Shown: positions 7,883 through 20,706, numbered from the stretch's first letter. The stretch is DNA of 32,000 nt from Pirellula staleyi DSM 6068 (GCA_000025185.1 CP001848.1:1680001-1712000), one strand, 5' to 3'. The notes: generated by a model not told the origin, from the sequence alone. Program-made: numbers and translations.

Positions 7883-10800
7883 TTAGAGGCTGGTGTCTTG
7901 GGAGTTGTTGAAGTCGCCGCGGATGTCGCTGGTGAGGGGGTCGGCATTGGTGTGGGTGCCGAAGAGATCGTTGCCGCTGCCACCGTAAACGGTGTCGCGG
8001 TCGAGGTCGTCGGTGTGGGTGAGATTCGGGGCGACCGGGCCGCCGCTGTTCCAGGCCACCAGCAGCGCGAGCATCGCGGCATCGACCGCGCTGCTATACG
8101 TGTTGCTCGTCGCCGTGTCGCTCGTCCCTTGGTAAGTGGTGATCGCCGCGAGCACCAGGTCGTTGCCGTTGCCGCCGTCGACCAGATCAACGCCGTCGCC
8201 GCCGATCAGTACGTCGTTGCCATCGCGGCCGTACAGCCGATCGTCGCCATCGCCGCCGCTGAGGAAGTCGTCGCCGACATCGCCACTGATCGTGTCGTTC
8301 CCCTGCGCGCCGTAAATGCGGTCGTTGCCCGAGCTGCCACTCAGCTGATCGTTGCCGTAGCCGCCGTGGATCCAGTCGTCACCCGCGCCAGGGCTCACAC
8401 TATCGTTGCCGCCACCGGCGTAGAAGAGATCGTTGCCGCCGAGCGCGCTCAGCGTATCGTTACCGCCGATGTTGAGCTCGTGCGGATTGAGCTCGTCGCT
8501 CGTCGGAGCGTCGTCGCCCCAGACGATGTTGTTGCCGCTGCTGGCATTGATGCGATCGTTGCCGAGACCACCGACCAAGAGGTCGTTGTTGAAGCTGCCC
8601 GTCAGGAAGTCATCTCCCGCTTCACCGTAGAATTCCGCCGGAATCTGCAGGTTCGATTGGTTGATGATGTCGTTGCCGCCGCGGCCGTAGACGAGCGTCT
8701 TGCCAGGGACGTTGTGGTACGTGTAGCTCGAGCCGATCTGCACGCGAGTGCGGCTGGGTTCAAGCGTCGTGTTGGCGCGAGCGAACTGAATCGTGTCATT
8801 GCCATTGGTGCCGCGGATGTAGATGTCATTGATCGTGGCGCTCGTCATCTCGCCATCGTCGGCCAAGTTGAGATCTTCGATCGTGGTGAAGGTGACGGTC
8901 GCGTGCGTCGAGCTCAACACTTGTCCGCTGCTCACGAGCACGGGGCTCGTCGCGGCGAGTCCACCGCCGAGCGCCGAGACATCGATGTTCAGCACATCGC
9001 CCGGCAGCACCGAGGGATCGTTGCCGTTGATGAAGAAGGGGGTCGTGAGGCTCGGGCGAATCATGTCATCGACGCCGTCGAGTTCACTGGCGCTCAGCAG
9101 ATAGCCAGGCGCGGTGCTCGATGGTGTGCCGCCGAAGGTGTCGTCGCCAAGACCACCGTTGAGGGTGAGCCGTGCGAGGAAGTCAGCTGCGTTGACGTAG
9201 AACTGATCGTTGTCTCCGGCACCGGTGACGACGGCGGTATCAAGGTCGTTGGCCGCTTCGGTCATGTTGACGCGGATCGTATCGGCGCCGCCCGACGTGG
9301 TGACATCGAGATCGTCGATGCTCGTGAACGTGATGTCGATTCCCGACGCGATCGTGAGCCCTTCGATCGTGGTGCGCGTGATGACGACGGAGTCGGCCGA
9401 CACACTTCCGCTGTCGACGACGATCAGCGAGTCGTCGTCCCCGGCAACGCCATTGAACGACAGAGTCGAGGCGATGTTCGATGCGGAATTCCCGCTGTCA
9501 AACACCTGGAACGTGTCGACCCCGATGTCGCCCGTTACCGTCACGGGCACGCCACTCTTGATCGCGTGGATGCGAACCGTGTGAGCGCTGTTGTCGGTCG
9601 CCGCGAGCGACGAACCAGCCACGATATCGATGCTCGTGAGGCTCGACGTGCTGTCGATGTTCACCAGATCAATCGCTTCGTTGCCGCCACCCGCGATGAG
9701 GTCGAGCGCGAGGAAACCTTCGAAGGTGGTCGTCGCGACGAGACCCGTATCGGCGGTGATCTCGGTCACGCCATCAGCTGCTGCACCATCGTCGCTGATC
9801 TCGATATCGGCAGTGCTCGTGCTGCTCGAAGCATCGACGACGAGGTTGCCACCAGCGCCGTCGAGGATGAGCGTGTCGAGGTCGGCGAAGCTGACGAGGG
9901 TCAGCGGCGCGCCACTCGGCCCCACACCGACGTTGCCACTTCCTTGACCATCGAGGACGTCGCTGAAGTAACCGACATCAGCGGCAGTAAGGAGCTCGAG
10001 CGCGAGGCTGTTATCGCCGAGTCCGCCATCGAAGTGGATCGTCACATCGGTCAGATTGCTCGCGGTGTAGTAAGCATCGGCGGCTATATTCAAGTGCGCG
10101 CCATTGCTCACACCACCCGACGCGAGGCTGTTGTCGACCAGCGGCGCAGCGCCGTCGAAGCTCGGGAGTCCCGCTGCTGTTTCGCGAATCGTCAGCGACT
10201 CACTATCGCTGCTACCGATCACCGTGAAGCTGTTGATCGTATCGGCCTGGCCACTGAACTTGCCGAGGCCATTCACCTCGACTTCGAACACGTTCGGTGC
10301 ACTCAGGAAGATCTCGATCGCGTCGGCCGCGCCGTTCTGGAAGCCGGCGATTCGCATGTCGAGCACGAGGTTGTAGACCGACGTCAGCGGCGTCGTTTGC
10401 ACCGTTTCAATCGAGCTATACGCAACCCCTGCCGCCGACGCGCCGAACGACCAAACGCCGCTGTAGTTGACTGCGCCGAGCGTCAATGTCGGCACGCCGA
10501 GTCCCGTGATATCGAGCACTAAAAGATCGCCCGCAGGCATCGTCGGATCGCCACCAAAAATGCTGATCGGTGTGCTCGCGAGACCATTGTCTTGATCGGG
10601 CCGGACGTTGAACGTATCGATCTCCGCGCCGCCGGTGAACGTCGCGCTCACCGCGTCGATATCCCCTGCAAAGCTCAGCGTCGCGCCACCCACATCCGCA
10701 CTCGCCGCATCAATCGTCACGCTGACGGTTCCCGTCGCGCTGATCGTGCCGCTGAGGGTCGCATCGTCACCTGCCAGCAGCACCACATTGCTCGTCGAGC

Positions 10801-13800
10801 TGAGTGTGCCACTGACGATGATGTCGTCGTCGGCAGCGCCGGTATCGGTCACCGCGAGGTTCACCGCGCCGGCGGCATTGATGCTCGTGACGGTCATCGT
10901 GCCGGTCGCCGAGGTGATGTCGACGAGACCGTTGTTGGTCGTGATGCTTGTGAGCGTGATGGCGCTCGCTTCATCGATGTCGATCGCGCCGGTGCCAGTG
11001 ACGCTGGCGGTGAGCGTAGCGATGCTCGTATCGAGATCGATCCCGCTAGCGCTCGTCGCGCTCAGGTTACTCGCCGACACATTGAGCACACCTGCGTTCG
11101 CATCCGTAATCGCCCCCGTCGTCGCCACCAGCGTCGCATCGCCTACGGCCGTGATGGTGGTGACGGCGATGTCGCCACTGGCAGCAGTGAGTGTGATGTT
11201 GCCATTCACGGTCGTTGCGGACGAGACTGCGAGGCCGCTGGTCTCGTTGATGTTGATGTTGCCATTGGTTGCGCCGGTCGTGGAAACGATCAGCGACGTG
11301 ATGGTGGTGTCGAGATCGATGGCGTTTGCCACACCGGTGGCAGCCTGCGCGACCAGCAGACCGGTCGCGACGTTTACACTCGCGCCGTTGCCGTCGGAGA
11401 TCGAGCCGGTGAGCGCGGTGAGGGTCACAGCAAGTCCGGCGGTGATCGTGTTGTTCACGCTGATCGAACCACCTGAGGTCAAGCTGATCGCACCACCAGC
11501 GCCAACCATCAGCGGACCATCCACTTCGATCGTATCGGCCCCCACTCCCGTATCAATCGTGATGTTCGCATTCGCATGCGCATTGGCACCACTCGTGATG
11601 GTGACGCTGTCGGCAGCATCGGAGCCACCCGTCACGGTGTTGATCTCGACAGCGATATTGCCCGAGAGATGAACTTGCTCGAACGCCACGCCGCCGCTGT
11701 TGCCACTCACAACGAGGGCTGGAATTGCGGAGGTGGCGACCGTTGCGCCAAAGCCAGCGCTGATGTCGATCGTGTCGGCAGCGCCACCGAAGTTGACGAC
11801 GGCGCTAGCCAGATTAAACATGTTCACCGGCTCGAGACCACGGAACGTGATCGTCCCGGCGAGGGCATCGGAGGTGATCGTTCCGGCGCGGGCAATCACG
11901 GCGTCGCTGGTGTACGTTGCCGTCTGCAATCCGGTGCCGACAATCGCCAGCACATCGCCAAACGAGGGATTGCCGCCAGCTGCAACCGGCGAGCCCTGCC
12001 CTTCACCGTCGTAGTAAATCCCTCCGGGGAGCGCGACGTTGATGGCGTTGAGATTGACGTTCAGTGTGTCGTCGGAATCACCGCCGTAGAACGTGAAGGC
12101 GTTGGGTGGTGTCGTCGTCGTGTAACCACCAATCACCGCGCCATTGTTGAGCGAGTAAGTGACGGTGATGTTCCCCGCCCCATCGGCAGCTGTGACCGTC
12201 ACGATATCAGCACCCGCAGTGCCGTTAATGATCGGCTGTGAATAGAGCGCAACATCGTTCCCCGCACCTGGCCCCGCGCTATCGGCGCTGTAGCTGATGT
12301 AGAACGTGCTTCCACCCACCACCACTGCCGCTCCTTCGGCCAGCCCCGCAAACGTCCCCACCACCGCATCCGTCCCATCATTGGTGATGAGGATGATTTC
12401 CTGCAGCGTTAAAGCGTTGGGTGTGAATCCGCCGAGGAGGGAAACGTTCAGCGTAGCGCCACCAAGATTGATGGTGCCGGTGGTGTTGAGTTGATCGTGA
12501 GTGTTCGCGCCACCATCGCCGGGTGTGAGGCCGCCGATTTCGAAGCTGTATACATTGCCAGCCGAACCGACGATGTTGCCGGTGGCGAGCGTTCCGGTGG
12601 TACTGGTGCCAGTCCCTGCAGCGACGAGGCTCGCGCCAGTTCCCGAGAGTGCGCCGACCACGCTACCAGTGCCCGAGAGAGTGGCCGCAGCAGCGACATT
12701 CACCGAGGAATTAAGAGTTCCGAGGACGCGAAGTTCGCCTGTGCTGACGCTCGTCGAGCCTGCGGAGTTGCCGGCGCCGGTGAGATCGAAGCGTCCCGCG
12801 CCACTCTTGGTGAGTGCGCCGACCACTACCACATTGCCAGAGTTGGAGATGAGTCCCGCTGCTGTGACGGCGAAGTTCGAGCCGATGTTCGTCGAGCCGA
12901 GGTTGATGATGCCGCCGCTGGTGAGCGAGGCTGTTGTGGTGGTCGAGAGCAACGCCGAGGAGACGATGGTGTTGGCCGCCGTGACGCTCACCGAACCAGC
13001 CGTGGTGTTTTGGCTGAAGGTGACATCGTCGCCAGAGGCGATGACGATCGAGCCAGGCGCGCGGCTGTTGCCGACTTGTCCGTTAAAGTTCACGTCTCCC
13101 ACACCAGCGGTGATGGTGAGTGGTAGATCGGGGTTGTATTCGAGGATAAATCGGGTCGCTGCACCATTATTGATGGTGAGGTCGTTCCAGCCACCTGCGC
13201 CGATGATTTCCGCGTAATCTTCATCGCCCGACTGGTTCGGTTCGCCCGAATTCCAGTTCGTATAGAAGCCGTTCTGCGCTGTGCCGCCGGCGGTACCGAT
13301 CCAGAAAATGCTTCCTGCTTCAGGGCCATCCATCCAACGCCATGTACTTTCGGTTTGCAGATCCGAGGCACCAATCCAAGCGCGTCCACCACCGAGGGTC
13401 GCGGTGATGGCGGCGTTTTCAGCAGGCGAGGTGATGTTGGCGAGATAGCCACCAGCAGCGAGTGCCGCTGCGCGAGCAGCGGTCCAGGTGATCGGGCCAC
13501 CGGTGTTCACATTCACGTGGTTGCTGGCGATTTGATTCACTGCGCCGCCGAAGGTGACAGCAGCACCCACAGCGCCATTGGCGGTGGTGTTGATGTTGAC
13601 GGCACCAGCGAGACGAACGCCACCGCTAAAGTTGATGGCAGCCCCTTCGGTGGTGTTGCCCCGCGCGACGGTGGTTTCACCGCTGGCGGTAAACGTTTGG
13701 GTGCCGGTGGTATCGACTCCCACCAGGCTGATGTTGCTGCCGGCAAAGTTCACACTCGACAAACGATAGATCGAGCCCATTACGTTGGCGGCCGAGATCG

Positions 13801-16800
13801 TACCCGCACCAGCGTTGACGCTCAGCGACTGTGGCGAAGCGGCATTGAACTCGACGATATAGTTGCGTGTCGAGGTGATGTTCAAATCGTTCCAGCCACC
13901 CGTGCCGAATTGGAATTCGGCCCCATCTTCGTCGCCCGATTGATTCGGCTCGCCAGTGTTCCAGTTGGCGTAGTTGCCACCCACGGTCGATCCACCAACG
14001 GCGCCACTCCAGAACTGCACGTTGTTATCGGGACCATCGGCCCAGCGCCAGGCCCCTTCGACAGCGGTGTCATTTGCACCAATCCAAGCCGTTCCCGAGC
14101 CGATGGCGTTGATGCGGGAATTCTCGACAGCCGATCGAATCGAAGCGAGGTGCCCGGTAGTTCCCAGGAAGCTGAGCGAGGTGGCGGCAGTACGAGCGTT
14201 GCTCCAAGTCAGCGCCGAGGCGACGATCTGATAATGGCTCATCGTGTCCACGGTGCCGCCGAACACCACATTACCGCCCGCGGTGTTGATCGTGGTTCCG
14301 CTGAGGACGTTGAGAGGTCCGCTGAACGTCACCGCGCCGCCGCTGGTGGTGTGGGTGGCGCGAGTGATGATCGAGTTCGTCGAGGCAAACGTTTGTGCGC
14401 CGGTCGTGGTGACGTCGTCGACCACGATCAGCGGAGCATTCATCGAAACCGATGTCAGAACTGCGCCGCTACCGATGTTGCCACCGACAATCACCGAGCT
14501 TCTTCCATTGGCGGTCAGGGTGCGAGCCCCGCCGCTGCTGTCGATCGTCGACGCAAACTGCAAATCGTCGCCACTTACGGTGACGTTCGTCGCCAAACTA
14601 ACGGTCGAGTTGACTGTCAGGTCCGAAATTGTGGCGACATTGCCACCAAAGCTCGTGCTCGCCGCGCTGATCGTCACGTTGTTGAGCGGCTGATTATTGT
14701 CGCCGACTCCCGCGCCAAACGTCACGTTGCTGCTGCCAGTGCTAATCGTCAAGTCGGCTGCAAACAGGCTGCTGCCGTACTCGATGATATAGGCGTTCGA
14801 CGAACCGACCCCCAGGTCGTTCCAAGTGCCGTTGGCGATCATCGTCGCCGCATCTTCATCGGGCGAGTTGTTCGGTTCACCGGTGCCGTTCCAGTTGGCA
14901 TAGTTGCCACCCACCGTCACGCCGCCCGAGCCACTCCCTGTCCCTTGCCAGAACTGCACCCCTGCGTCAGGGCCGTCGGCCCAACGCCAAGCACCTTCCA
15001 CCAAGACGTCGTTGGCGCCGATCCAAACAGTGGAGGTTCCACCAATCGAGCGGACATAAGCGTTTTCAGCAGCCGAACGAATGTTGACGAGATAGCCGCT
15101 CATTCCATCGAGCGTCGAAGCGAGCGCTAGTGCGCGAGCGTTTGTCCAGTTTTGACCAGCGCCGACAAACACATAGCCCTTCAGCGCGCGAACGTTGCCG
15201 GTGAAGCTCACCGAGCCATCGGTCCCTGCCAGCGAGTCGGTATCGAGCACCAGGCTTTCACCAATTCTCGCATCGCCGTTGATGGCAATCGAACCGGCAT
15301 TGGTACCCAGATCGGTGCTAATGTTGGCCGAGATTTCCGTGCGCTCGGCATTGATCGTCAGGTTGCCGGTGTTGGCAGCGTTGCCGAGTCCCAGTGCGCC
15401 GGTGATCCGCACGATATCGCTCGCGCCGTCGCCGTTGATCGTGACAGCCGACCGCAGATCGGAGCCAGGAGCAACCGTCAGCACTCCAGCATCGGCCCCC
15501 ATGTTGATGGTGAGCTGCTGAGTCGGAACGCTAAACGTGGTGACTTCGAAGGTCGGAGTTCCGTTTTGACTCCGCAGACGGATGAGCCCGTCCCCAAGCA
15601 GTCCGTTATCTTCCAAGATCGCTTGGTCGCTGGTCCCCGGGAGATTGAAAATGGCGATCGCTGGCGAGGCATCGAAATCGGTGAGGACCGGTTCGAGGCC
15701 GGTGTAAGTGATCAGCGTGCCGTCGATGCTGATCGAGCCATCGGTGGCGTTCACATAGTTGTAGGTGACAGTGTTCGGGTTTCCGCCGAGCACTTCCAAA
15801 TCGTCGCCATCGACACCTTGTGTGTTGCCATGGACGGTGATGGGAAGAGCGAAGATCCCGCCCGATGCGGTGTAGTCGATCACGAAGTCGTCGTCGCCAC
15901 CTTGGCCACTGATTTCCAGCGACGAGAGTTGCGACAGCGGAGTGTTGATCGTCAGCACGTTATCGATGAAGACTTGCAGATTGCCGCCACTGGTTTGAAC
16001 GCGGAAATCCTGGTCCAAATTGGTGCCGACCACGGTCGGAGTTTGATCGTAGGCGAGCGTCACGCTATTCGCGCCGTAGGTCAGCTGCATCGGCGCGCCG
16101 TTGATCACGACGAGCCCACTGGTGGGATAGTTGGCGAAAGTGCCACTGATGCCGCCAGCTGCCGAGACAAGCGTTAAGGTGTCGCCTGGGACAGGAACAT
16201 AGCTTCCGGACAGCTGCAGGGTTGCGCCACTCAGAGCGATCGCGCCGCTGCTGCTGAGCGCGTCGTAGCTCCCCGCAGTGTTGCCGCTGATCACCAGTTC
16301 GACGATGCCAGTGGAGCTAAGCGCGGCACTCCCAACCGACAGCGTTCCGGTGGGATTGCCGGGGGCCACGGTCGAAAGCGCTGCTGCGGCAACCGCACCT
16401 GCAATGGTGCCGGTCCCTTCGAGTCGCGCGCCGCTGGCAACGGTGACGTCGGTGGCAGCTGCTCCATCGACGAGCGAGCCATTCACGCGCAGCGTCCCTT
16501 GCGAAACCGTCGTGACGCCGCTGAAGTTGCTGCTGCCACCCAGCGTCAGCACGCCGGTCCCTTGCTTCGTGAGGAAGTTGTTCCCCAAGAGCGAAATCGA
16601 GAGAGCGGCCGGATCGATCACACGCCGACCAAACGGATTGGTGCCATCGAGCTGCTGCCAGAAGGCCTGCACTCCCGAACCGCCATTCCCTTCGTAGTAC
16701 GTGATTTCGATATCGTGCACACCGGCGGTCAAGACGATATCGCCTGTGCGTGTCGTCATCCCTTGCGAGAAGTTGTTGTCGACAACCTGCGTGCCATTGA

Positions 16801-19800
16801 TGAAGAGCTTGCTACCGTCGTCGCTGCGGGTGCCGAAGCGGTACGTCGCATTTTCGGGAACGGTGATTTTTCCGACCCAGCGGCCACCGATGTTGTCCGC
16901 TCCAACATTCACGCCAACGCCTGCATAGACGTTGCCGTTGCTGCCGCCGCGCTCGATCGTGCCACCGAGTCCCGAGGTAATCTCCGTGCCGATACCGAAG
17001 TCGACAAAGCGGGTGAACTTGGTGGTGGGAAGCAGCGTGACGAGCTGATTGGGAAGCGCCACGGTGCCGGGCGAATTGAGCAGCGTGGTGGCCGAGCTGG
17101 GGAATGCGGGGGCGATCGAAGCGGCGTTGAAATACTGGCCGCGCAGACCACCGGGAACAAACGTTCCGGGCGTCGCGATGTCGTTGAGCAGCACGCTCGA
17201 AGGGATGATCTGCCGCGCGAACGACTGACTGCCAGCGCTCAATTGCCAGCTCGCTTGGATACCACCATTGCCACCACTGTCGAACGCTGCGATCAGGATG
17301 TCGTAATCACCCGGGGTGAGATAAATGGTGCCGCTGCGGTTAGTCATCCCTTGCGCGAAGTTGTTATTCACCACTTCGCGACCATTGATGAAGAGCTTGC
17401 TTCCATCGTCGCTGCGGGTGGTGAATTGATAGTGGCCAGCCACCGTAATGCGGATCCGACCTTCCCAGTAGGCCGCCATGTCGTTGCCGACATTCACCCC
17501 AATGCCACCAAAGAAATTGCCGCTGCTGTCACCACGATCCAGGATCGAGCCATTGCCTGGAATGGTTTCTGTTCCACCACCGAAGTCGATCGTGGGGGTC
17601 AGGTAGTTGGCAACGGTGGGGATGTAGGACTGTAAGTTGATCGGCGTCGAAGCGACGTTGATCGGATTGAGGAACGTCGTAGCGCCGCCAGCACCAAGCG
17701 CGTAGTACTCGCCACGGAGACCCCCTTGCACATTGGCTGAGCTGCCGAGTCCCGTCACGTTGCCGGTGACGGTGGTGTTGCCACTTCCCGAGACGCGAAG
17801 ACCCGAGAGTCCGACATCCATGCTGCCGATCGTCAGGCTCGTCCCATCGTTATGAATTCCCATCGTGCCACGATCGACGATCGCAGCCTTCACAGCGCCA
17901 GGGAGCGAAGTGCTTCCCGAGAGAATCACCAGTCCGGTGTTGCCCGCTGCGGCGACATTGCCGAGCGTGATATCTTCCCCAGCGCCAAAGGTCAGATTCC
18001 CTTGCAGCGCCAGCGTTGCGCCGTCACTCACGTAGGTGTCGCTCGTCGTGGTGCCGAGCGCGGCACTCGTTGTGGCCACGAGCGTTCCCCCTGTCACACG
18101 TGTCGGTCCGCTATAGCTCGAGCCGGTGCCAGTGAGGGTGAGCGTTCCGGTGCCATGCTTCGAGAGACCACCATCGATCGTGCGCAAACTGGTCGCGCCA
18201 CCACCGGCGGTTTCGCTCGGCGAGGTGTAGAGCAGGCCATCGACGGTGCTGGTGCCACTGTCGCTGATACCAAAACCAAAGGTCAATCCGAAGTTATTGG
18301 CAGGCACGGCACCACCGTCGCCACCACCATCGCCGAAGCGGATTTCGATGTTGTGCCAGCCGTCCCCGTTGGGGCCCATGCCAAGGTTCAAGCGACCGGT
18401 GCCGGTAGGTGTGCCAGCGTTGGTGTCGCGCAGGTAGAGAGCGCCGTCGATCGTGATCCGGACGTTGTCGTCCATCGATTCGGCAAACGAGACGATCCCA
18501 TCGGCGTCGAAGAACTGACCGGTATAGACCCAAGTGACGTTATCGTTGAGCCAGTAGATGCCGGGGTTTCCGCCGACGCGCGACGTCGCATTGCCAGCCG
18601 GTGTGCCGAGTCGTTGCACGGTGCCAGGATTCGGGCTGGTTTCGTCGAAAGCGCCTGCGAGGAGCCCTTCGAGCAAGCCTTCCTGCTCGTAGCCCAGCAC
18701 GTTGCCGCTTACGAGAGTATTGCCGCTGCCGTCGATCTCCAGTTCAGCGCCGCCGCGAAGTGTGATATCGCTGGTGAGGTTCAGCTGCGACCCAGCATTG
18801 GTGATCATCGCCTGGCCCAGCGCGGTGATCGGACCGGCGATGGTGGAGGTGCCACTCGCGAGGCGAATTGCGCCGTTGAGGTTGTTGCCACGCCCGTTGA
18901 TCGAAAGGGCTTCCGAGGCGGGCAGATTCAAACCTGCAGCGACCAGCAGTTGGCCACCCGCTTGCACCAGCGTATCGCCGTCGCCTGAGCCGAGGGCATT
19001 GTTACTCGTGATACTGACGACACCCGCATTGATGCGCGTCAAACCGACGTAGTTATTGCCAGTTCCGGCGAGGGTGAGTGTGCCGCCACCGTTCTTGACG
19101 ATGCCACCATCGGGCGTGCGCAAGCGCGTGGCGGTTCCATCGATCGTCTCTTCGAGCTTCTGCAGATCGGCGACGTTGCCATTCACGGCCGGATTGCCAC
19201 TTTCGCTCCAGGCAAAACCGTAGGTGCTGCTCCAACCGGTGAAACCGTTGGTGCTGCCACTCGCACCAGCGCCACCACCACCGTTGCTGAAGCGGACCTC
19301 GATATCGTGCCAGCCATCGCCGTTGGGACCCATCCCCAGGTTCAGCGTGCCGGTGCTCGTAGCGACATTCCAGACGCTGTTGTCGAGTCGCACGACCCCA
19401 TCGATCACCACGTAGGTCCGGTCGTCGATCTGCTCGGCAAAGGCGACAACACCATCGGCGTCGTAGAACTGACCGTTGTAAACCCAAGTGGTAGTGCCAG
19501 CCCACGGCGCGACGGAGTTGGCAAACATCTGGCCAAAGCGGAAGCCGTTGGTGAGACCACCATAACCGGCGTAGATCGAGGTGCCGTTGTTAGCCGCGAA
19601 CGACATGTTGCCGCTTTGCGAAGCTTCAAGCAGACCCTCTTGATAGCCGCCCAGTACGTTGCCCGTGATGTTCGTGCTGCCGTTGCCCGAGACCGTGAGA
19701 GTGGCAAATCCGAGGGTGACGTTGCCACTGATGTTATGCGTACCGGCGTCGACATTGATGGTGCCGGAGGTGGCGAGCGTGAGCGGGGTACTGATGGTGT

Positions 19801-20212
19801 TGCCACCTAAATCGTCGTCGATAGCGGTCCCGCCACCAAAATTTTGGGCATCGAGGATGAGCGGATTTCCGCCGAGCGAATAGCCGGTCCCTGTGAAGCG
19901 GAGGGCGTAGCGGTTGGTCGACAGCGTGTCGTTGAACTGCGTGAAGTTGGCGGCAGCGGCCGGGAAAACGAGAACGTCGCCATCTTGCGGCAGCGTGTTG
20001 GAGTCCCAGTTGGTGTTGGTTCCCGAGATCCCCCCGTTCCAGTTGCCATCGACGTCGCCGACCCAGGTGAGAGTGGCGAGCACTTCGCGGCGCTCGAGCG
20101 TTTCGAAGAACATGCGGCGCTTGGAGGCCAGAGTCGACTTCTTCTCACGACGGTCGCGGGGATTTTTAGCGCGAAGCGAAGCTGAACGACGATCGAGTGA
20201 ACCTGAACTCAT
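7883..20212 (-). CDS. Giant (~4,100 aa) secreted/surface mosaic protein: autotransporter-associated beta-strand repeats, PA14 domains, C-type lectin-like domains, beta-helix-like stalk, RTX Ca-binding repeats
   Basis: Single uninterrupted ORF 7883..20344. Start placed at ATG 20212-20210 (GGAG 8 nt upstream), giving MSSGSLDRRS...KRRMFFETLERREVLA. Domain motifs were read directly from the translation and are listed as sub-features. I counted four K.G.G.L.L.G...Y.G.T.V..G.L beta-strand repeats. Confidence 0.9.
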   Translation of the reverse strand: MSSGSLDRRSASLRAKNPRDRREKKSTLASKRRMFFETLERREVLATLTWVGDVDGNWNGGISGTNTNWDSNTLPQDGDVLVFPAAAANFTQFNDTLSTNRYALRFTGTGYSLGGNPLILDAQNFGGGTAIDDDLGGNTISTPLTLATSGTINVDAGTHNISGNVTLGFATLTVSGNGSTNITGNVLGGYQEGLLEASQSGNMSFAANNGTSIYAGYGGLTNGFRFGQMFANSVAPWAGTTTWVYNGQFYDADGVVAFAEQIDDRTYVVIDGVVRLDNSVWNVATSTGTLNLGMGPNGDGWHDIEVRFSNGGGGAGASGSTNGFTGWSSTYGFAWSESGNPAVNGNVADLQKLEETIDGTATRLRTPDGGIVKNGGGTLTLAGTGNNYVGLTRINAGVVSITSNNALGSGDGDTLVQAGGQLLVAAGLNLPASEALSINGRGNNLNGAIRLASGTSTIAGPITALGQAMITNAGSQLNLTSDITLRGGAELEIDGSGNTLVSGNVLGYEQEGLLEGLLAGAFDETSPNPGTVQRLGTPAGNATSRVGGNPGIYWLNDNVTWVYTGQFFDADGIVSFAESMDDNVRITIDGALYLRDTNAGTPTGTGRLNLGMGPNGDGWHNIEIRFGDGGGDGGAVPANNFGLTFGFGISDSGTSTVDGLLYTSPSETAGGGATSLRTIDGGLSKHGTGTLTLTGTGSSYSGPTRVTGGTLVATTSAALGTTTSDTYVSDGATLALQGNLTFGAGEDITLGNVAAAGNTGLVILSGSTSLPGAVKAAIVDRGTMGIHNDGTSLTIGSMDVGLSGLRVSGSGNTTVTGNVTGLGSSANVQGGLRGEYYALGAGGATTFLNPINVASTPINLQSYIPTVANYLTPTIDFGGGTETIPGNGSILDRGDSSGNFFGGIGVNVGNDMAAYWEGRIRITVAGHYQFTTRSDDGSKLFINGREVVNNNFAQGMTNRSGTIYLTPGDYDILIAAFDSGGNGGIQASWQLSAGSQSFARQIIPSSVLLNDIATPGTFVPGGLRGQYFNAASIAPAFPSSATTLLNSPGTVALPNQLVTLLPTTKFTRFVDFGIGTEITSGLGGTIERGGSNGNVYAGVGVNVGADNIGGRWVGKITVPENATYRFGTRSDDGSKLFINGTQVVDNNFSQGMTTRTGDIVLTAGVHDIEITYYEGNGGSGVQAFWQQLDGTNPFGRRVIDPAALSISLLGNNFLTKQGTGVLTLGGSSNFSGVTTVSQGTLRVNGSLVDGAAATDVTVASGARLEGTGTIAGAVAAAALSTVAPGNPTGTLSVGSAALSSTGIVELVISGNTAGSYDALSSSGAIALSGATLQLSGSYVPVPGDTLTLVSAAGGISGTFANYPTSGLVVINGAPMQLTYGANSVTLAYDQTPTVVGTNLDQDFRVQTSGGNLQVFIDNVLTINTPLSQLSSLEISGQGGDDDFVIDYTASGGIFALPITVHGNTQGVDGDDLEVLGGNPNTVTYNYVNATDGSISIDGTLITYTGLEPVLTDFDASPAIAIFNLPGTSDQAILEDNGLLGDGLIRLRSQNGTPTFEVTTFSVPTQQLTINMGADAGVLTVAPGSDLRSAVTINGDGASDIVRITGALGLGNAANTGNLTINAERTEISANISTDLGTNAGSIAINGDARIGESLVLDTDSLAGTDGSVSFTGNVRALKGYVFVGAGQNWTNARALALASTLDGMSGYLVNIRSAAENAYVRSIGGTSTVWIGANDVLVEGAWRWADGPDAGVQFWQGTGSGSGGVTVGGNYANWNGTGEPNNSPDEDAATMIANGTWNDLGVGSSNAYIIEYGSSLFAADLTISTGSSNVTFGAGVGDNNQPLNNVTISAASTSFGGNVATISDLTVNSTVSLATNVTVSGDDLQFASTIDSSGGARTLTANGRSSVIVGGNIGSGAVLTSVSMNAPLIVVDDVTTTGAQTFASTNSIITRATHTTSGGAVTFSGPLNVLSGTTINTAGGNVVFGGTVDTMSHYQIVASALTWSNARTAATSLSFLGTTGHLASIRSAVENSRINAIGSGTAWIGANDTAVEGAWRWADGPDNNVQFWSGAVGGSTVGGNYANWNTGEPNQSGDEDGAEFQFGTGGWNDLNITSTRNYIVEFNAASPQSLSVNAGAGTISAANVMGSIYRLSSVNFAGSNISLVGVDTTGTQTFTASGETTVARGNTTEGAAINFSGGVRLAGAVNINTTANGAVGAAVTFGGAVNQIASNHVNVNTGGPITWTAARAAALAAGGYLANITSPAENAAITATLGGGRAWIGASDLQTESTWRWMDGPEAGSIFWIGTAGGTAQNGFYTNWNSGEPNQSGDEDYAEIIGAGGWNDLTINNGAATRFILEYNPDLPLTITAGVGDVNFNGQVGNSRAPGSIVIASGDDVTFSQNTTAGSVSVTAANTIVSSALLSTTTTASLTSGGIINLGSTNIGSNFAVTAAGLISNSGNVVVVGALTKSGAGRFDLTGAGNSAGSTSVSTGELRVLGTLNSSVNVAAAATLSGTGSVVGALSGTGASLVAAGTGTSTTGTLATGNIVGSAGNVYSFEIGGLTPGDGGANTHDQLNTTGTINLGGATLNVSLLGGFTPNALTLQEIILITNDGTDAVVGTFAGLAEGAAVVVGGSTFYISYSADSAGPGAGNDVALYSQPIINGTAGADIVTVTAADGAGNITVTYSLNNGAVIGGYTTTTPPNAFTFYGGDSDDTLNVNLNAINVALPGGIYYDGEGQGSPVAAGGNPSFGDVLAIVGTGLQTATYTSDAVIARAGTITSDALAGTITFRGLEPVNMFNLASAVVNFGGAADTIDISAGFGATVATSAIPALVVSGNSGGVAFEQVHLSGNIAVEINTVTGGSDAADSVTITSGANAHANANITIDTGVGADTIEVDGPLMVGAGGAISLTSGGSISVNNTITAGLAVTLTALTGSISDGNGASVNVATGLLVAQAATGVANAIDLDTTITSLIVSTTGATNGNININETSGLAVSSATTVNGNITLTAASGDIAVTTITAVGDATLVATTGAITDANAGVLNVSASNLSATSASGIDLDTSIATLTASVTGTGAIDIDEASAITLTSITTNNGLVDITSATGTMTVTSINAAGAVNLAVTDTGAADDDIIVSGTLSSTSNVVLLAGDDATLSGTISATGTVSVTIDAASADVGGATLSFAGDIDAVSATFTGGAEIDTFNVRPDQDNGLASTPISIFGGDPTMPAGDLLVLDITGLGVPTLTLGAVNYSGVWSFGASAAGVAYSSIETVQTTPLTSVYNLVLDMRIAGFQNGAADAIEIFLSAPNVFEVEVNGLGKFSGQADTINSFTVIGSSDSESLTIRETAAGLPSFDGAAPLVDNSLASGGVSNGAHLNIAADAYYTASNLTDVTIHFDGGLGDNSLALELLTAADVGYFSDVLDGQGSGNVGVGPSGAPLTLVSFADLDTLILDGAGGNLVVDASSSTSTADIEISDDGAAADGVTEITADTGLVATTTFEGFLALDLIAGGGNEAIDLVNIDSTSSLTSIDIVAGSSLAATDNSAHTVRIHAIKSGVPVTVTGDIGVDTFQVFDSGNSASNIASTLSFNGVAGDDDSLIVVDSGSVSADSVVITRTTIEGLTIASGIDITFTSIDDLDVTTSGGADTIRVNMTEAANDLDTAVVTGAGDNDQFYVNAADFLARLTLNGGLGDDTFGGTPSSTAPGYLLSASELDGVDDMIRPSLTTPFFINGNDPSVLPGDVLNIDVSALGGGLAATSPVLVSSGQVLSSTHATVTFTTIEDLNLADDGEMTSATINDIYIRGTNGNDTIQFARANTTLEPSRTRVQIGSSYTYHNVPGKTLVYGRGGNDIINQSNLQIPAEFYGEAGDDFLTGSFNNDLLVGGLGNDRINASSGNNIVWGDDAPTSDELNPHELNIGGNDTLSALGGNDLFYAGGGNDSVSPGAGDDWIHGGYGNDQLSGSSGNDRIYGAQGNDTISGDVGDDFLSGGDGDDRLYGRDGNDVLIGGDGVDLVDGGNGNDLVLAAITTYQGTSDTATSNTYSSAVDAAMLALLVAWNSGGPVAPNLTHTDDLDRDTVYGGSGNDLFGTHTNADPLTSDIRGDFNNSQDTSL
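8147..8686 (-). other. RTX / hemolysin-type calcium-binding nonapeptide repeat block (domain of the giant CDS)
   Basis: GRGGNDIIN...GGLGNDRIN...GGNDTLSALGGNDLFYAGGGNDSVSPGAGDDWIHGGYGNDQLSGSSGNDRIYGAQGNDTISGDVGDDFLSGGDGDDRLYGRDGNDVLIGGDGVDLVDGGNGNDLVLA. Roughly 13-15 GGxGxDxUx-type units. One orphan unit, YGGSGNDLF, lies at 7961-7987. Confidence 0.85.
13136..13486 (-). other. C-type lectin-like domain 3 (domain of the giant CDS)
   Basis: WTAARAAALAAGGYLANITSPAENAAI...AWIGASDLQTESTWRWMDGP...YTNWNSGEPNQSGDEDYAEIIGAGGWNDLTINNGAATRFILEY. The WIGxxD, EPN and WND motifs are present and there is no Cys. Confidence 0.8.
13847..14206 (-). other. C-type lectin-like domain 2 (domain of the giant CDS)
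   Basis: WSNARTAATSLSFLGTTGHLASIRSAVENSRI...AWIGANDTAVEGAWRWADGP...YANWNTGEPNQSGDEDGAEFQFGTGGWNDLNITSTRNYIVEF. Confidence 0.8.
14777..15148 (-). other. C-type lectin-like domain 1 (domain of the giant CDS)
   Basis: WTNARALALASTLDGMSGYLVNIRSAAENAYV...VWIGANDVLVEGAWRWADGP...YANWNGTGEPNNSPDEDAATMIANGTWNDLGVGSSNAYIIEY. Confidence 0.8.
16655..17152 (-). other. PA14 domain 2 (domain of the giant CDS)
   Basis: GGLRGQYFNA...GGRWVGKITVPENATYRFGTRSDDGSKLFINGTQVVDNNFSQGMTTRTGDIVLTAGVHDIEITYYEGNGGSGVQAFWQ matches the canonical PA14 pattern. Confidence 0.85.
17243..17725 (-). other. PA14 domain 1 (domain of the giant CDS)
   Basis: GGLRGEYYALG...AAYWEGRIRITVAGHYQFTTRSDDGSKLFINGREVVNNNFAQGMTNRSGTIYLTPGDYDILIAAFDSGGNGGIQASWQ. 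Confidence 0.85.
18305..18694 (-). other. Divergent PA14-like module B (domain of the giant CDS)
   Basis: GYEQEGLLEG...VTWVYTGQFFDADGIVSFAESMDDNVRITIDGALYLRD...LNLGMGPNGDGWHNIEIRFGDGGGDGG. It has the same length and register as module A, 318 aa downstream of it. Confidence 0.5.
19259..19648 (-). other. Divergent PA14-like module A (domain of the giant CDS)
   Basis: GYQEGLLEAS...TTWVYNGQFYDADGVVAFAEQIDDRTYVVIDGVVRLDN...LNLGMGPNGDGWHDIEVRFSNGGGGAG. The layout is PA14/GLEYA-like (G.Y.F....DD....idG....), but the call is by pattern only. Confidence 0.5.
20075..20119 (-). other. N-terminal RRMFFETLERREVLA motif of the giant protein
   Basis: A basic stretch followed by F-E-x-L-E-x-R-x-x-L-A. I recall [RK]R..E.LE.R.LL[AS] as a recurrent N-terminal signature of very large planctomycetal secreted proteins. 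No classical hydrophobic Sec h-region is visible. Confidence 0.5.
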
Positions 20213-20706
20213 GAGCGAAACTCCAAGCTGCAAATTGACGGAGCGCGATCGACAGCCGCAGCGCGGTGGCTTTCCGAGGAAAGTAGCGACTGCGAAGACG
20301 ATCTCGCCGAAAATTTCCACCCCAGGAGTTCTGTTGCACTTCAAACGCTCGGATCGCGCGGCGCAGTGAGCTCGAGCCGCAGCAACGAGTGAACGGTGCT
20401 GCGGATAAGCCAGTGTTGAGCGCGAAGCATCGCCGCACGGCGGCTGGCGATACTGGAAAACGCGGAGAGTTTCGACGAAGCAGGGGTTGCTAAGTAACCT
20501 GAATTCCGTTGCGGTTACGAGGCAGGGCTACGAGCGAAAACTGACGCGAGGCGAGAGAAGTGGGAGAGGCACCTAGTGGGGGAAATTGGGGGAGGTAAGG
20601 GGAACGACTCGAGGCGATCTTGGATTCGTGGCGTGGCAGACTGCTGAGCGCAACGATCAGCGCTTCAGCATAGTTGGGGAGATCCAAAAACGCACCTTCT
20701 GACTAG

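What the first reader, a model, noticed from the sequence alone, without database searches (positions are those of the whole stretch)
13136..15148. Three cysteine-free C-type lectin-like domains with intact EPN and WND motifs displayed along a bacterial stalk
Three ~120-aa modules (14777-15148, 13847-14206, 13136-13486) keep the CTLD landmarks W..A...(C->A)...G.L..I.S..E, WIG..D, W.W.DG and Y.NW. Each also carries G-E-P-N-[NQ]-S-[PG]-D-E-D and then G-[TG]-W-N-D-L. In animal C-type lectins, EPN plus WND form the Ca2+ site that selects mannose/glucose/GlcNAc-type equatorial 3,4-OH sugars. Here every position that normally holds the disulfide cysteines is Ala, Gly, Ile or another non-Cys residue. 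Each CTLD is inserted after a V.F.G.V beta-helix-like run. Inference: this is a trivalent Ca2+-dependent glycan-binding head on a giant surface fibre.
Basis: partly seen in the sequence, partly recalled or inferred. Interest (0 to 1): 0.62.

Follow-up and report, generated by a model that had tools for sequence, protein, structure and literature searches.

The report
Three disulfide-free bacterial C-type lectin domains
A 4,109-residue cysteine-free surface protein of a planctomycete carries three real animal-style C-type lectin domains with complete calcium and sugar sites, so it is most likely a sugar-binding adhesin, but such domains are common, catalogued and untested in bacteria, which makes this a sound and fairly ordinary find.

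Summary
Three ~125-aa modules (window 14768-15175, 13838-14233, 13130-13498, minus strand) each pass Pfam Lectin_C (38-40 bits against a cut-off of 22.6). They are 49-53% identical to one another. Each keeps EPN, the following Glu and WND, plus all four auxiliary Ca2+-site residues. None has a cysteine: the four canonical Cys columns hold A/A/A, A/G/Y, V/I/I and I/V/L. An AlphaFold model (pLDDT 90) matches only animal carbohydrate-recognition domains (MBP-C, TM 0.90, rmsd 1.8 A).

It has not been tested biochemically.

The lack of cysteine is not special to the lectin domains. The whole protein has none, against about 40 expected. So do six paralogous giant PATR/RTX proteins that share its C-terminal cassette at 94-100% DNA identity and carry other lectin-like domains.

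The domain type is widespread. About half of the nearest ~400 metagenomic domains are Cys-free, and close relatives occur in Saccharibacteria, Micavibrio, Bacteroidota, Cyanobacteria and other groups. The group is catalogued as CDD cd03603.

This scan has already found the same thing on other DNA several times. I class it as a new member of a known kind, of modest interest.

The parts
7883..20212 (-). Giant gene: 4,109 aa from M45, no cysteine. The open frame runs up to 20344.
   Evidence: P0003 (4109 aa) is identical to P0001 from residue 45. The only Cys residues are at pre-start positions 3, 29 and 31. About 40 Cys are expected at the genome mean of 0.99%.
20075..20122 (-). N-terminal planctomycete motif RRMFFETLERREVLA. 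No Sec-type hydrophobic region is seen.
   Evidence: Weak PF07595 Planc_extracel hit at aa 75-90. The same motif is at the N-terminus of all six paralogues.
17243..17725 (-). PA14 domain 1
   Evidence: PF07691, 2.1e-13, 50.7 bits.
16655..17152 (-). PA14 domain 2
   Evidence: PF07691, 7.3e-17, 62 bits.
16484..16573 (-). Best-scoring PATR (autotransporter-associated beta-strand) repeat, one of four.
   Evidence: PF12951, 6.9e-16; TIGR02601, 2.6e-12.
14768..15175 (-). CTLD 1 (aa ~1724-1859). WIGANDVLVE at 14996-15025, EPNNSPDED at 14852-14878, GTWNDL at 14813-14830. Preceded by VSFTGNV at 15191-15211.
13838..14233 (-). CTLD 2 (aa ~2038-2169). WIGANDTAVE at 14057-14086, EPNQSGDED at 13925-13951, GGWNDL at 13883-13900. 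Preceded by VVFGGTV at 14249-14269. This is the module that was modelled.
13130..13498 (-). CTLD 3 (aa ~2283-2405). WIGASDLQTE at 13349-13378, EPNQSGDED at 13217-13243, GGWNDL at 13178-13195. Preceded by VTFGGAV at 13538-13558 and followed by VNFNGQV at 13073-13093.
7883..12498 (-). C-terminal cassette (aa 2616-4153) shared at 94-100% DNA identity with up to six other giant genes of the same genome. The CTLDs lie in the unique part just upstream of it.
   Evidence: blastn of the gene against its own genome.
7886..8686 (-). RTX nonapeptide block plus an ~87-aa C-terminal tail.
   Evidence: PF00353, 8.5e-34, four stretches. Partial match to NF033943.

Best explanation
The gene encodes a giant, exported, cysteine-free surface protein of a planctomycete that works as a multivalent Ca2+-dependent lectin or adhesin.

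Three canonical C-type lectin-like domains project sideways from a beta-strand-rich (PATR-type) stalk. This geometry is possible because the N- and C-termini of a CTLD lie next to each other. Each domain is bracketed by V.F.G.V-type strands. Each keeps the full set of Ca2+ ligands:
- Site 2: Glu and Asn of EPN, the Glu of DED, and Asn and Asp of WND.
- Site 1: Asp of WIGxxD, Glu of xEG, Asn/Gln after EPN, and the last Asp of DED.

By analogy with MBP and DC-SIGN, the EPN-type site should bind sugars with equatorial 3- and 4-OH groups (mannose, glucose, GlcNAc) or fucose, through the site-2 Ca2+. Together with the two PA14 domains further N-terminal, the three CTLDs would give avidity for glycan-rich surfaces such as algal or microbial cell walls, exopolymers or marine-snow-like particles.

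The two structural disulfides are replaced by small or hydrophobic pairs: Ala with Ile/Val/Leu, and Ala/Gly/Tyr with Val/Ile. The most likely reason is that the whole protein class is exported unfolded, probably by a type I-like route given the C-terminal RTX block, and folds outside the cell with Ca2+, where disulfide formation is not available.

Shown: domain identity, fold, residue conservation, absence of Cys, and the paralogue family. Inferred: export route, surface location, Ca2+ and sugar binding, and ligand class.
For: - Lectin_C is above the gathering score three times.
- A confident CTLD model matches only animal CRDs.
- All five site-2 and four site-1 ligand positions are conserved in the three modules, and align with those of DC-SIGN.
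- The same ligand set is kept in 115 of 214 Cys-free relatives. Both EPN (106) and QPD-type variants occur, as in functional animal lectins.
- The same protein has two PA14 domains. PA14 domains of RTX adhesins are proven Ca2+-dependent sugar binders (PMC6650083, PMC8092209).
- Six paralogues on the same chassis carry other carbohydrate-binding-type domains: PA14/GLEYA, F5/8 type C and Laminin_G_3.
- There is a C-terminal RTX block, and an ABC-HlyD-OEP operon elsewhere in the genome.
- The whole protein and its paralogues are Cys-free.
- Among the top 146 related proteins, 71 have only Cys-free CTLDs. These have a median whole-protein Cys content of 0.0%, and 24 carry at least three GGxGxD motifs. 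Only 1 of the 66 proteins with Cys in every CTLD does.
Against: - There is no biochemical evidence for any bacterial domain of this type. I found no paper that tests one.
- Clustering of the ligand side chains could not be measured.
- Modules 2 and 3 have Gln where MBP and DC-SIGN have the site-1 Asn.
- A conserved ~13-residue insertion (FW.G...G....G.Y.NW) in the long-loop region is absent from DC-SIGN. Part of it is modelled with lower confidence (residues 91-100, pLDDT 71), and it could alter the site.
- No T1SS genes lie in the window, and no hit reaches the equivalog cut-offs for HlyD or PrtD.
- The protein lacks the Ig-like extender repeats and the known retention module of LapA-type RTX adhesins.
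- Cys-free CTLDs also occur in relatives with ordinary Sec signal peptides, so type I export is not the only possible reason for losing the disulfides.
Confidence: 0.72

Rival explanations
1. The CTLDs bind Ca2+ but serve mainly as Ca2+-dependent folding or rigidifying modules, or they bind a non-carbohydrate ligand (protein, mineral or ice surface) as many animal CTLDs do. Glycan recognition would then be left to the PA14 domains.
For: - Many CTLDs are not lectins (established knowledge of the superfamily).
- The best single PDB sequence hit by E-value is a type II antifreeze protein, 2afp at 5.5e-10, although it covers the N-terminal half only.
- A long-loop insertion specific to the bacterial group is present.
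- Ca2+ is used structurally throughout RTX adhesins (PMC7493085).
Against: - Non-lectin CTLDs normally lose EPN/QPD and WND. Here all nine Ca2+-ligand positions are kept in three copies that have diverged to about 50% identity.
- Relatives show the EPN/QPD alternation typical of sugar-specificity switching.
Confidence: 0.17
2. The protein is a secreted RTX cytolysin or toxin that uses the lectin domains to target cells, not a cell-attached adhesin.
For: - Partial NCBIfam match to 'RTX family hemolysin' NF033943 (73 bits).
- A C-terminal RTX block is present.
- Relatives are named 'Ca2+-binding RTX toxin-like protein' by JGI.
Against: - The NF033943 score is 73 bits against a cut-off of 1000, and it covers only the nonapeptide repeats.
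- No pore-forming hydrophobic domain, acylation region or enzymatic toxin domain was found by Pfam or NCBIfam.
- The architecture of PATR strands plus lectin modules, and the seven-member family with varied binding domains, fit adhesins.
Confidence: 0.07
3. The CTLDs are variable-region scaffolds of a diversity-generating retroelement, as in the C-type-lectin-fold proteins Mtd and TvpA.
For: DGR target proteins use a C-type-lectin fold (PMC10743442; established knowledge).
Against: - No template-repeat-like near copy of the CTLD-coding DNA exists anywhere in the complete genome. The only other matches are the modules themselves, at 68% identity.
- The domains belong to Lectin_C with a Ca2+ site, not to the FGE/DUF1566-type DGR fold.
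- None of the ten flanking ORFs scanned in the window hits a reverse transcriptase family.
Confidence: 0.01

Closest known systems
Animal Ca2+-dependent C-type carbohydrate-recognition domains of the EPN (mannose) type: mannose-binding protein A/C (1rdi, 1kwu), DC-SIGN/CD209 (1sl5, 1k9i), collectin-11 (4yli), SP-D, CD23
   Same: - Same Pfam family (PF00059).
- Same fold (TM up to 0.90, rmsd 1.8 A).
- WIG motif present.
- EPN, Glu and WND site-2 ligands and the four site-1 ligands are at aligned positions.
   Different: - Neither conserved disulfide is present.
- There is an extra ~13-residue conserved segment in the long-loop region.
- The context is prokaryotic: the domains are embedded in a 4,109-aa beta-strand/RTX protein instead of on a collagenous or coiled-coil neck.
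- Sequence identity is only 24-29%.
Bacterial subgroup of C-type lectin-like domains: NCBI CDD cd03603 CLECT_VCBS, and proteins that PGAP names 'lectin-like protein'
   Same: - Prokaryotic Lectin_C domains inside giant repeat proteins (VCBS, cadherin-like, RTX).
- Members were already listed from Rhodopirellula baltica, Blastopirellula, Prochlorococcus, Synechococcus and Chlorobium (PMC5421131 Table 1; PMC9387257).
- Relatives at 35-51% identity occur in Micavibrio, Saccharibacteria, Planctomycetota, Bacteroidota, Nitrospiraceae, Verrucomicrobia and Polynucleobacter.
- Others occur in Cyanobacteriota and Nitrosopumilus.
   Different: - Assignment to cd03603 itself could not be tested, because no CDD library is available here.
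- This protein has three copies on a PATR/RTX chassis together with PA14 domains.
- No ortholog of the three-CTLD region was found among giant proteins.
RTX adhesins with Ca2+-dependent lectin modules: MpIBP and MhLap (PA14 domains), AhLap (CBM), FrhA
   Same: - Giant size.
- C-terminal RTX repeats.
- Ca2+-dependent sugar-binding modules that bud from the fibre axis (PMC6650083, PMC8092209, PMC12077191, PMC10865825).
- PA14 domains present.
- A probable ABC-MFP-OMP export system in the genome.
   Different: - No tandem Ig-like extender domains and no recognisable LapA-type retention module.
- The N-terminus carries the planctomycete RR.FE.LE.R..LA motif.
- The binding modules lie mid-protein, not next to the RTX block.
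- None of the RTX adhesin papers I read reports a CTLD as a ligand-binding module.
Intimin/invasin C-terminal CTLD-like domains, and the DGR variable proteins Mtd and TvpA
   Same: They are bacterial or phage proteins that use a C-type-lectin-like fold for adhesion.
   Different: - Those folds lack the long-loop Ca2+/sugar site and are not detected by PF00059.
- The domains here are canonical Lectin_C with a complete Ca2+ site.
- No DGR template repeat is present.

Membership tests
Pfam Lectin_C (PF00059) / C-type lectin-like domain superfamily | Profile score above the curated gathering score | tested here: met
   39.8, 38.7 and 39.2 bits against 22.6 for the three modules taken alone. The whole-genome search finds exactly these three.
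Pfam Lectin_C (PF00059) / C-type lectin-like domain superfamily | CTLD fold: two helices, two antiparallel sheets, N- and C-terminal strands paired | tested here: met
   AF2 model with pLDDT 90 and pTM 0.85. The 50 Foldseek PDB hits listed are all animal CTLDs, with MBP-C at TMt 0.90 and rmsd 1.8 A.
Pfam Lectin_C (PF00059) / C-type lectin-like domain superfamily | Two conserved disulfides (C1-C4 and C2-C3) of the canonical animal CTLD | tested here: not met
   The four Cys columns hold A/A/A, A/G/Y, V/I/I and I/V/L. This is a hallmark of animal CTLDs but is not required by the Pfam model. About half of the closest relatives also lack them.
Ca2+-dependent mannose-type carbohydrate-recognition domain (true C-type lectin) | Site-2 ligands: Glu and Asn of EPN, a downstream Glu, and Asn and Asp of WND | tested here: met
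   All five are present in all three modules. They align with DC-SIGN E347/N349/E354/N365/D366 (alignment; residue numbering from established knowledge).
Ca2+-dependent mannose-type carbohydrate-recognition domain (true C-type lectin) | Site-1 (auxiliary) Ca2+ ligands: Asp and Glu in the WIGxxD...E segment, Asn after EPN, Asp after the Glu | tested here: met
   D, E and D are present in all three modules. The fourth position is N in module 1 and Q in modules 2 and 3.
Ca2+-dependent mannose-type carbohydrate-recognition domain (true C-type lectin) | Ligand side chains converge on one metal site in three dimensions | not testable with these tools
   Model coordinates cannot be read here. Convergence is inferred only from the fold match and the residue alignment.
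Ca2+-dependent mannose-type carbohydrate-recognition domain (true C-type lectin) | Measured Ca2+-dependent, EDTA-reversible sugar binding | not testable with these tools
   This needs a recombinant domain and a glycan array, ITC or affinity resin.
RTX adhesin (type I-secreted, LapA/MpIBP-like) | C-terminal RTX nonapeptide repeats followed by a short non-repetitive tail | tested here: met
   PF00353 at 8.5e-34 in the last 267 aa.
RTX adhesin (type I-secreted, LapA/MpIBP-like) | Cognate ABC transporter, membrane fusion protein and TolC-like protein | tested here: inconclusive
   None lies in the window. No hit reaches the equivalog cut-offs. One ABC-HlyD_3-OEP operon lies 1.9 Mb away, but nothing links it to this protein.
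RTX adhesin (type I-secreted, LapA/MpIBP-like) | Long run of tandem Ig-like extender domains and an N-terminal retention module | tested here: not met
   Pfam finds PATR beta-strand repeats and no Ig-like repeats. The N-terminus carries the planctomycete motif instead.
DGR variable protein with C-type-lectin fold | Template repeat nearly identical to the variable region, and a reverse transcriptase nearby | tested here: not met
   No second copy of the CTLD DNA exists in the genome beyond the 68% internal matches. None of the ten flanking ORFs scanned hits a reverse transcriptase family.
CDD cd03603 CLECT_VCBS (bacterial CTLD subgroup) | Score above threshold against the cd03603 position-specific matrix | not testable with these tools
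   No CDD library is available. Membership is likely, given 35-51% identity to many bacterial CTLDs and the members listed in PMC5421131 and PMC9387257.

The most novel reading that the evidence does not exclude
The seven giant cysteine-free genes form a repertoire of adhesins that can swap their binding regions. A constant 0.95-1.5-kaa C-terminal stalk, RTX and export cassette is kept almost identical by gene conversion. The N-terminal two-thirds carry interchangeable lectin modules: CTLD x3 plus PA14 here, and PA14/GLEYA, discoidin or ConA-like domains elsewhere. Within this system the disulfide-free CTLD would be a Ca2+-gated module. It would stay unfolded during type I-like export and become a functional mannose/fucose-type lectin only in Ca2+-rich external water. 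It would then be a natural C-type lectin that can be expressed in the cytoplasm without refolding.
Probability: 0.25. Interest if true: 0.55.

Novelty: new member of a known kind. Interest (0 to 1): 0.33.

Why it matters
Canonical C-type lectins are treated as an animal innate-immunity invention that depends on two disulfides. These bacterial domains keep the complete Ca2+ and sugar site without any cysteine, and they are abundant in environmental prokaryotes, yet I could find no biochemical or structural study of one.

Testing one would do three things:
- Show whether the EPN/QPD specificity code holds outside animals.
- Indicate what planctomycetes hold on to in nature.
- Provide a C-type lectin scaffold that folds without disulfides and is easy to make in E. 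coli.

This particular locus adds little beyond earlier examples. Its one extra is the context of a seven-gene family of Cys-free giant proteins with a shared C-terminal cassette.

Tried and rejected
- Single-sequence AlphaFold of module 2 failed (pLDDT 30). It worked only with an 18-row alignment.
- The search for homologous proteins with the three-CTLD region found only the protein itself. With one module it found nothing. The word index and the length filter limit both searches.
- I recalled that the Aeromonas hydrophila RTX adhesin carries a C-type lectin. That was wrong: the paper describes a CBM, an RTX-like domain and a vWFA domain.
- The DGR reading is rejected.
- Equivalog-level T1SS models gave only sub-threshold hits.
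They give only weak GtfA_EBD hits.
- The linkers between the CTLDs match no Pfam family.
- The tree of 161 domains is poorly resolved (143 columns, 19 starred branches). It supports only the module 1 plus module 2 sister pair and recurrent changes of Cys state. It says nothing about the direction of any transfer between animals and bacteria.

Full report
**Where it is.** The finding lies inside one very long open frame on the minus strand (window 7883-20344, 4153 codons). The public gene call starts at the ATG 44 codons in (window 20212): the 4109-aa database protein P0003 is identical to the translation from residue 45. Flanking genes include DUF1559/N-methyl pseudopilin-like proteins, a DUF1573 protein, glmS and a 3-keto-disaccharide-hydrolase-domain protein. 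These, with a weak 'Planctomycete extracellular' N-terminal motif, mark the organism as a planctomycete. Its genome is complete at 6.2 Mb in one contig.

**The observation.**
- Pfam finds three Lectin_C stretches in the whole protein (1.2e-26). Each module alone scores 38.7-39.8 bits against a gathering score of 22.6. They are the only Lectin_C domains in the genome.
- The three modules are 49-53% identical.
- Each has WIGA[NS]D...E, EPN[NQ]S[PG]DED and G[TG]WNDL.
- None contains cysteine. I aligned 408 related domains to the profile. The four columns that carry Cys in 103-119 of them hold A/A/A, A/G/Y, V/I/I and I/V/L in modules 1/2/3.
- A V.F.G.V run precedes each module, and a fourth follows module 3.

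**Fold and binding site.**
- A single-sequence AlphaFold run failed (pLDDT 30). With an 18-row alignment of bacterial relatives the model reached pLDDT 90 and pTM 0.85.
- Foldseek against the PDB listed only animal C-type carbohydrate-recognition domains among its best 50 matches: CEL-I, collectin-11, CD23, MGL, SRCL, the mannose receptor, and MBP-C at TMt 0.90 and rmsd 1.8 A.
- Sequence searches of the PDB, with one module and with a profile, likewise list only animal CTLDs. No bacterial homologue appears among them.
- In the HMMER alignment to DC-SIGN, the EPN Glu and Asn, the Glu of DED and the Asn-Asp of WND fall on the residues known to ligate the sugar-binding Ca2+. The Asp and Glu of WIGxxD..xEG, the residue after EPN and the last Asp of DED fall on the auxiliary Ca2+ site (alignment; residue roles from established knowledge of MBP and DC-SIGN).
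- All nine positions are occupied appropriately in the three modules, except Gln for Asn at one site-1 position in modules 2 and 3.
- I could not read model coordinates. Spatial clustering of the side chains is therefore inferred, not measured.
- Compared with DC-SIGN, the bacterial domains carry a conserved ~13-residue extra segment (FW.G...G....G.Y.NW) in the long-loop region. Residues 91-100 of the model, which cover its last part, have lower confidence (pLDDT 71).

**The carrier protein.**
- The protein also has two PA14 domains (50.7 and 62 bits), PATR/autotransporter-associated beta-strand repeats and a strong C-terminal RTX block (8.5e-34).
- From its start codon it has no cysteine at all. 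The genome's long ORFs average 0.99% Cys, so about 40 would be expected, and P(0) is about 3e-18.
- A blastn of the gene against its own genome shows that the last 2.8-4.6 kb (aa 2616, 2875, 3064 or 3206 to the end) recur at 94-100% identity in six other giant genes. One of these is convergent and only 15 kb away.
- All seven genes begin with the RR.F.E.LE.R..LA motif and are Cys-free after the start.
- Their unique N-terminal parts differ: PA14 plus GLEYA, F5/8 type C, Laminin_G_3, or nothing recognisable.
- The CTLDs lie in the unique part, just upstream of the shared cassette.
- So the missing disulfides are a property of a whole class of giant exoproteins. Nine of the twelve longest ORFs in the genome are Cys-free.
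- An ABC-HlyD-OEP operon exists elsewhere in the genome. No hit reaches the equivalog cut-offs for type I secretion components. The export route is a reasonable inference, not a result.

**How common it is.**
- A profile of the three modules finds 18,307 proteins at E<=0.001 and 516 at E<=1e-30 among 1.84 billion representatives. The top hits are large multi-CTLD proteins.
- Of 394 near-full-length domains in the top 150, 192 have no Cys, 186 have EPN and 245 have WND.
- The Cys-free domains are the closest relatives: median 89 bits, against 30-44 bits for domains with 4-6 Cys.
- Of 214 Cys-free domains, 115 keep the complete site-2 ligand set. Of these, 106 are EPN-type and the rest QPD-type.
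- Proteins whose CTLDs are all Cys-free are themselves Cys-free (median 0.0%). They often carry RTX motifs: 24 of 71, against 1 of 66 for proteins with Cys in every CTLD.
- Named relatives at 35-51% identity come from Micavibrio, Saccharibacteria (these keep the EDC...WND..C disulfide), Planctomycetota, Thermoguttaceae, Bacteroidota, Nitrospiraceae, Verrucomicrobia and Polynucleobacter. Others come from Cyanobacteriota ('lectin-like protein') and Nitrosopumilus.
- Within the organism's own family and order, 19 of 41 genomes have Lectin_C, often in ORFs of 3,000-8,500 aa. Across the phylum, 24 of 201 sampled genomes match the bacterial profile at E<=1e-10.
- A rough tree puts modules 1 and 2 as sisters (support 96) with module 3 nearest, so the copies arose by internal duplication. 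The Cys state changes many times on that tree.

**What is known.**
- The bacterial subgroup is catalogued. cd03603 is cited for a 3,090-aa Synechococcus protein (PMC9387257). A 2016 review tabulates bacterial members including Rhodopirellula baltica and Blastopirellula proteins (PMC5421131).
- I found no paper that tests sugar binding or solves a structure of such a bacterial domain.
- Work on RTX adhesins shows that PA14 and CBM modules are Ca2+-dependent lectins that bud from the fibre (PMC6650083, PMC8092209, PMC12077191). None of the papers I read reports a CTLD in that role.
- This scan has already reported the same kind of Cys-free EPN/WND bacterial CTLD on several other genomes, and each follow-up judged it genuine but common. 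My own searches lead to the same conclusion.

**Verdict.** The most likely function is multivalent Ca2+-dependent binding of mannose/GlcNAc/fucose-type glycans by a giant exported adhesin. The absence of disulfides reflects the cysteine-free nature of this class of exported protein. It is a new member of a known, widespread and experimentally neglected family. The more unusual feature of the locus is the seven-gene family with a concerted C-terminal cassette, which I followed only partly.

Noticed in passing
window 7883-12498, and genome positions 1669180-1672451, 2966003-2970618, 3694688-3699303, 3961807-3965649, 5368250-5371096 and 5385986-5388832: Seven giant genes (2,976-4,503 aa) share a 2.8-4.6 kb 3' cassette at 94-100% DNA identity, with four different breakpoints. 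Their N-terminal parts carry different lectin-like domains. This looks like gene conversion keeping a common stalk, RTX and export module constant under interchangeable N-terminal binding regions.
   Followed up: partly
whole genome (G000): Nine of the twelve longest ORFs (at least 2,976 aa) have no cysteine at all, and 54 ORFs of at least 400 aa are Cys-free. The mean for long ORFs is 0.99% Cys.
   Followed up: partly
L042 4209-9231 (G000 3568208-3573230): An operon encodes an ABC exporter (589 aa), a HlyD-family protein (459 aa) and an OEP/TolC-like protein (616 aa). It is the only type I-like tripartite set I examined, and it is a candidate exporter for the RTX giants.
   Followed up: partly
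window 18206-18745 and 19160-19699 (minus strand): The two duplicated N-terminal modules (GLLE...WVY.GQF.DADG...GMGPNGDGWH) that another first-stage note calls PA14-like are not recognised as PA14 by Pfam. They give only weak GtfA_EBD hits, so their fold is unassigned.
   Followed up: partly
L015, L016, L021 and L023 (Saccharibacteria loci): The CTLDs of Saccharibacteria, at 45-48% identity (tblastn) to the window's modules, keep the EDC...WND..C disulfide and lack the other one. This is an intermediate state between the animal domains and the fully Cys-free planctomycete ones.
   Followed up: no
window 12401-13135 and 14207-14776 (minus strand): The beta-strand-rich linkers between and after the CTLDs match no Pfam family, apart from a weak DUF5649 hit. 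They probably form an undescribed stalk repeat that brackets each CTLD with V.F.G.V and L.I.AG.G.V.F.G.VG strands.
   Followed up: no
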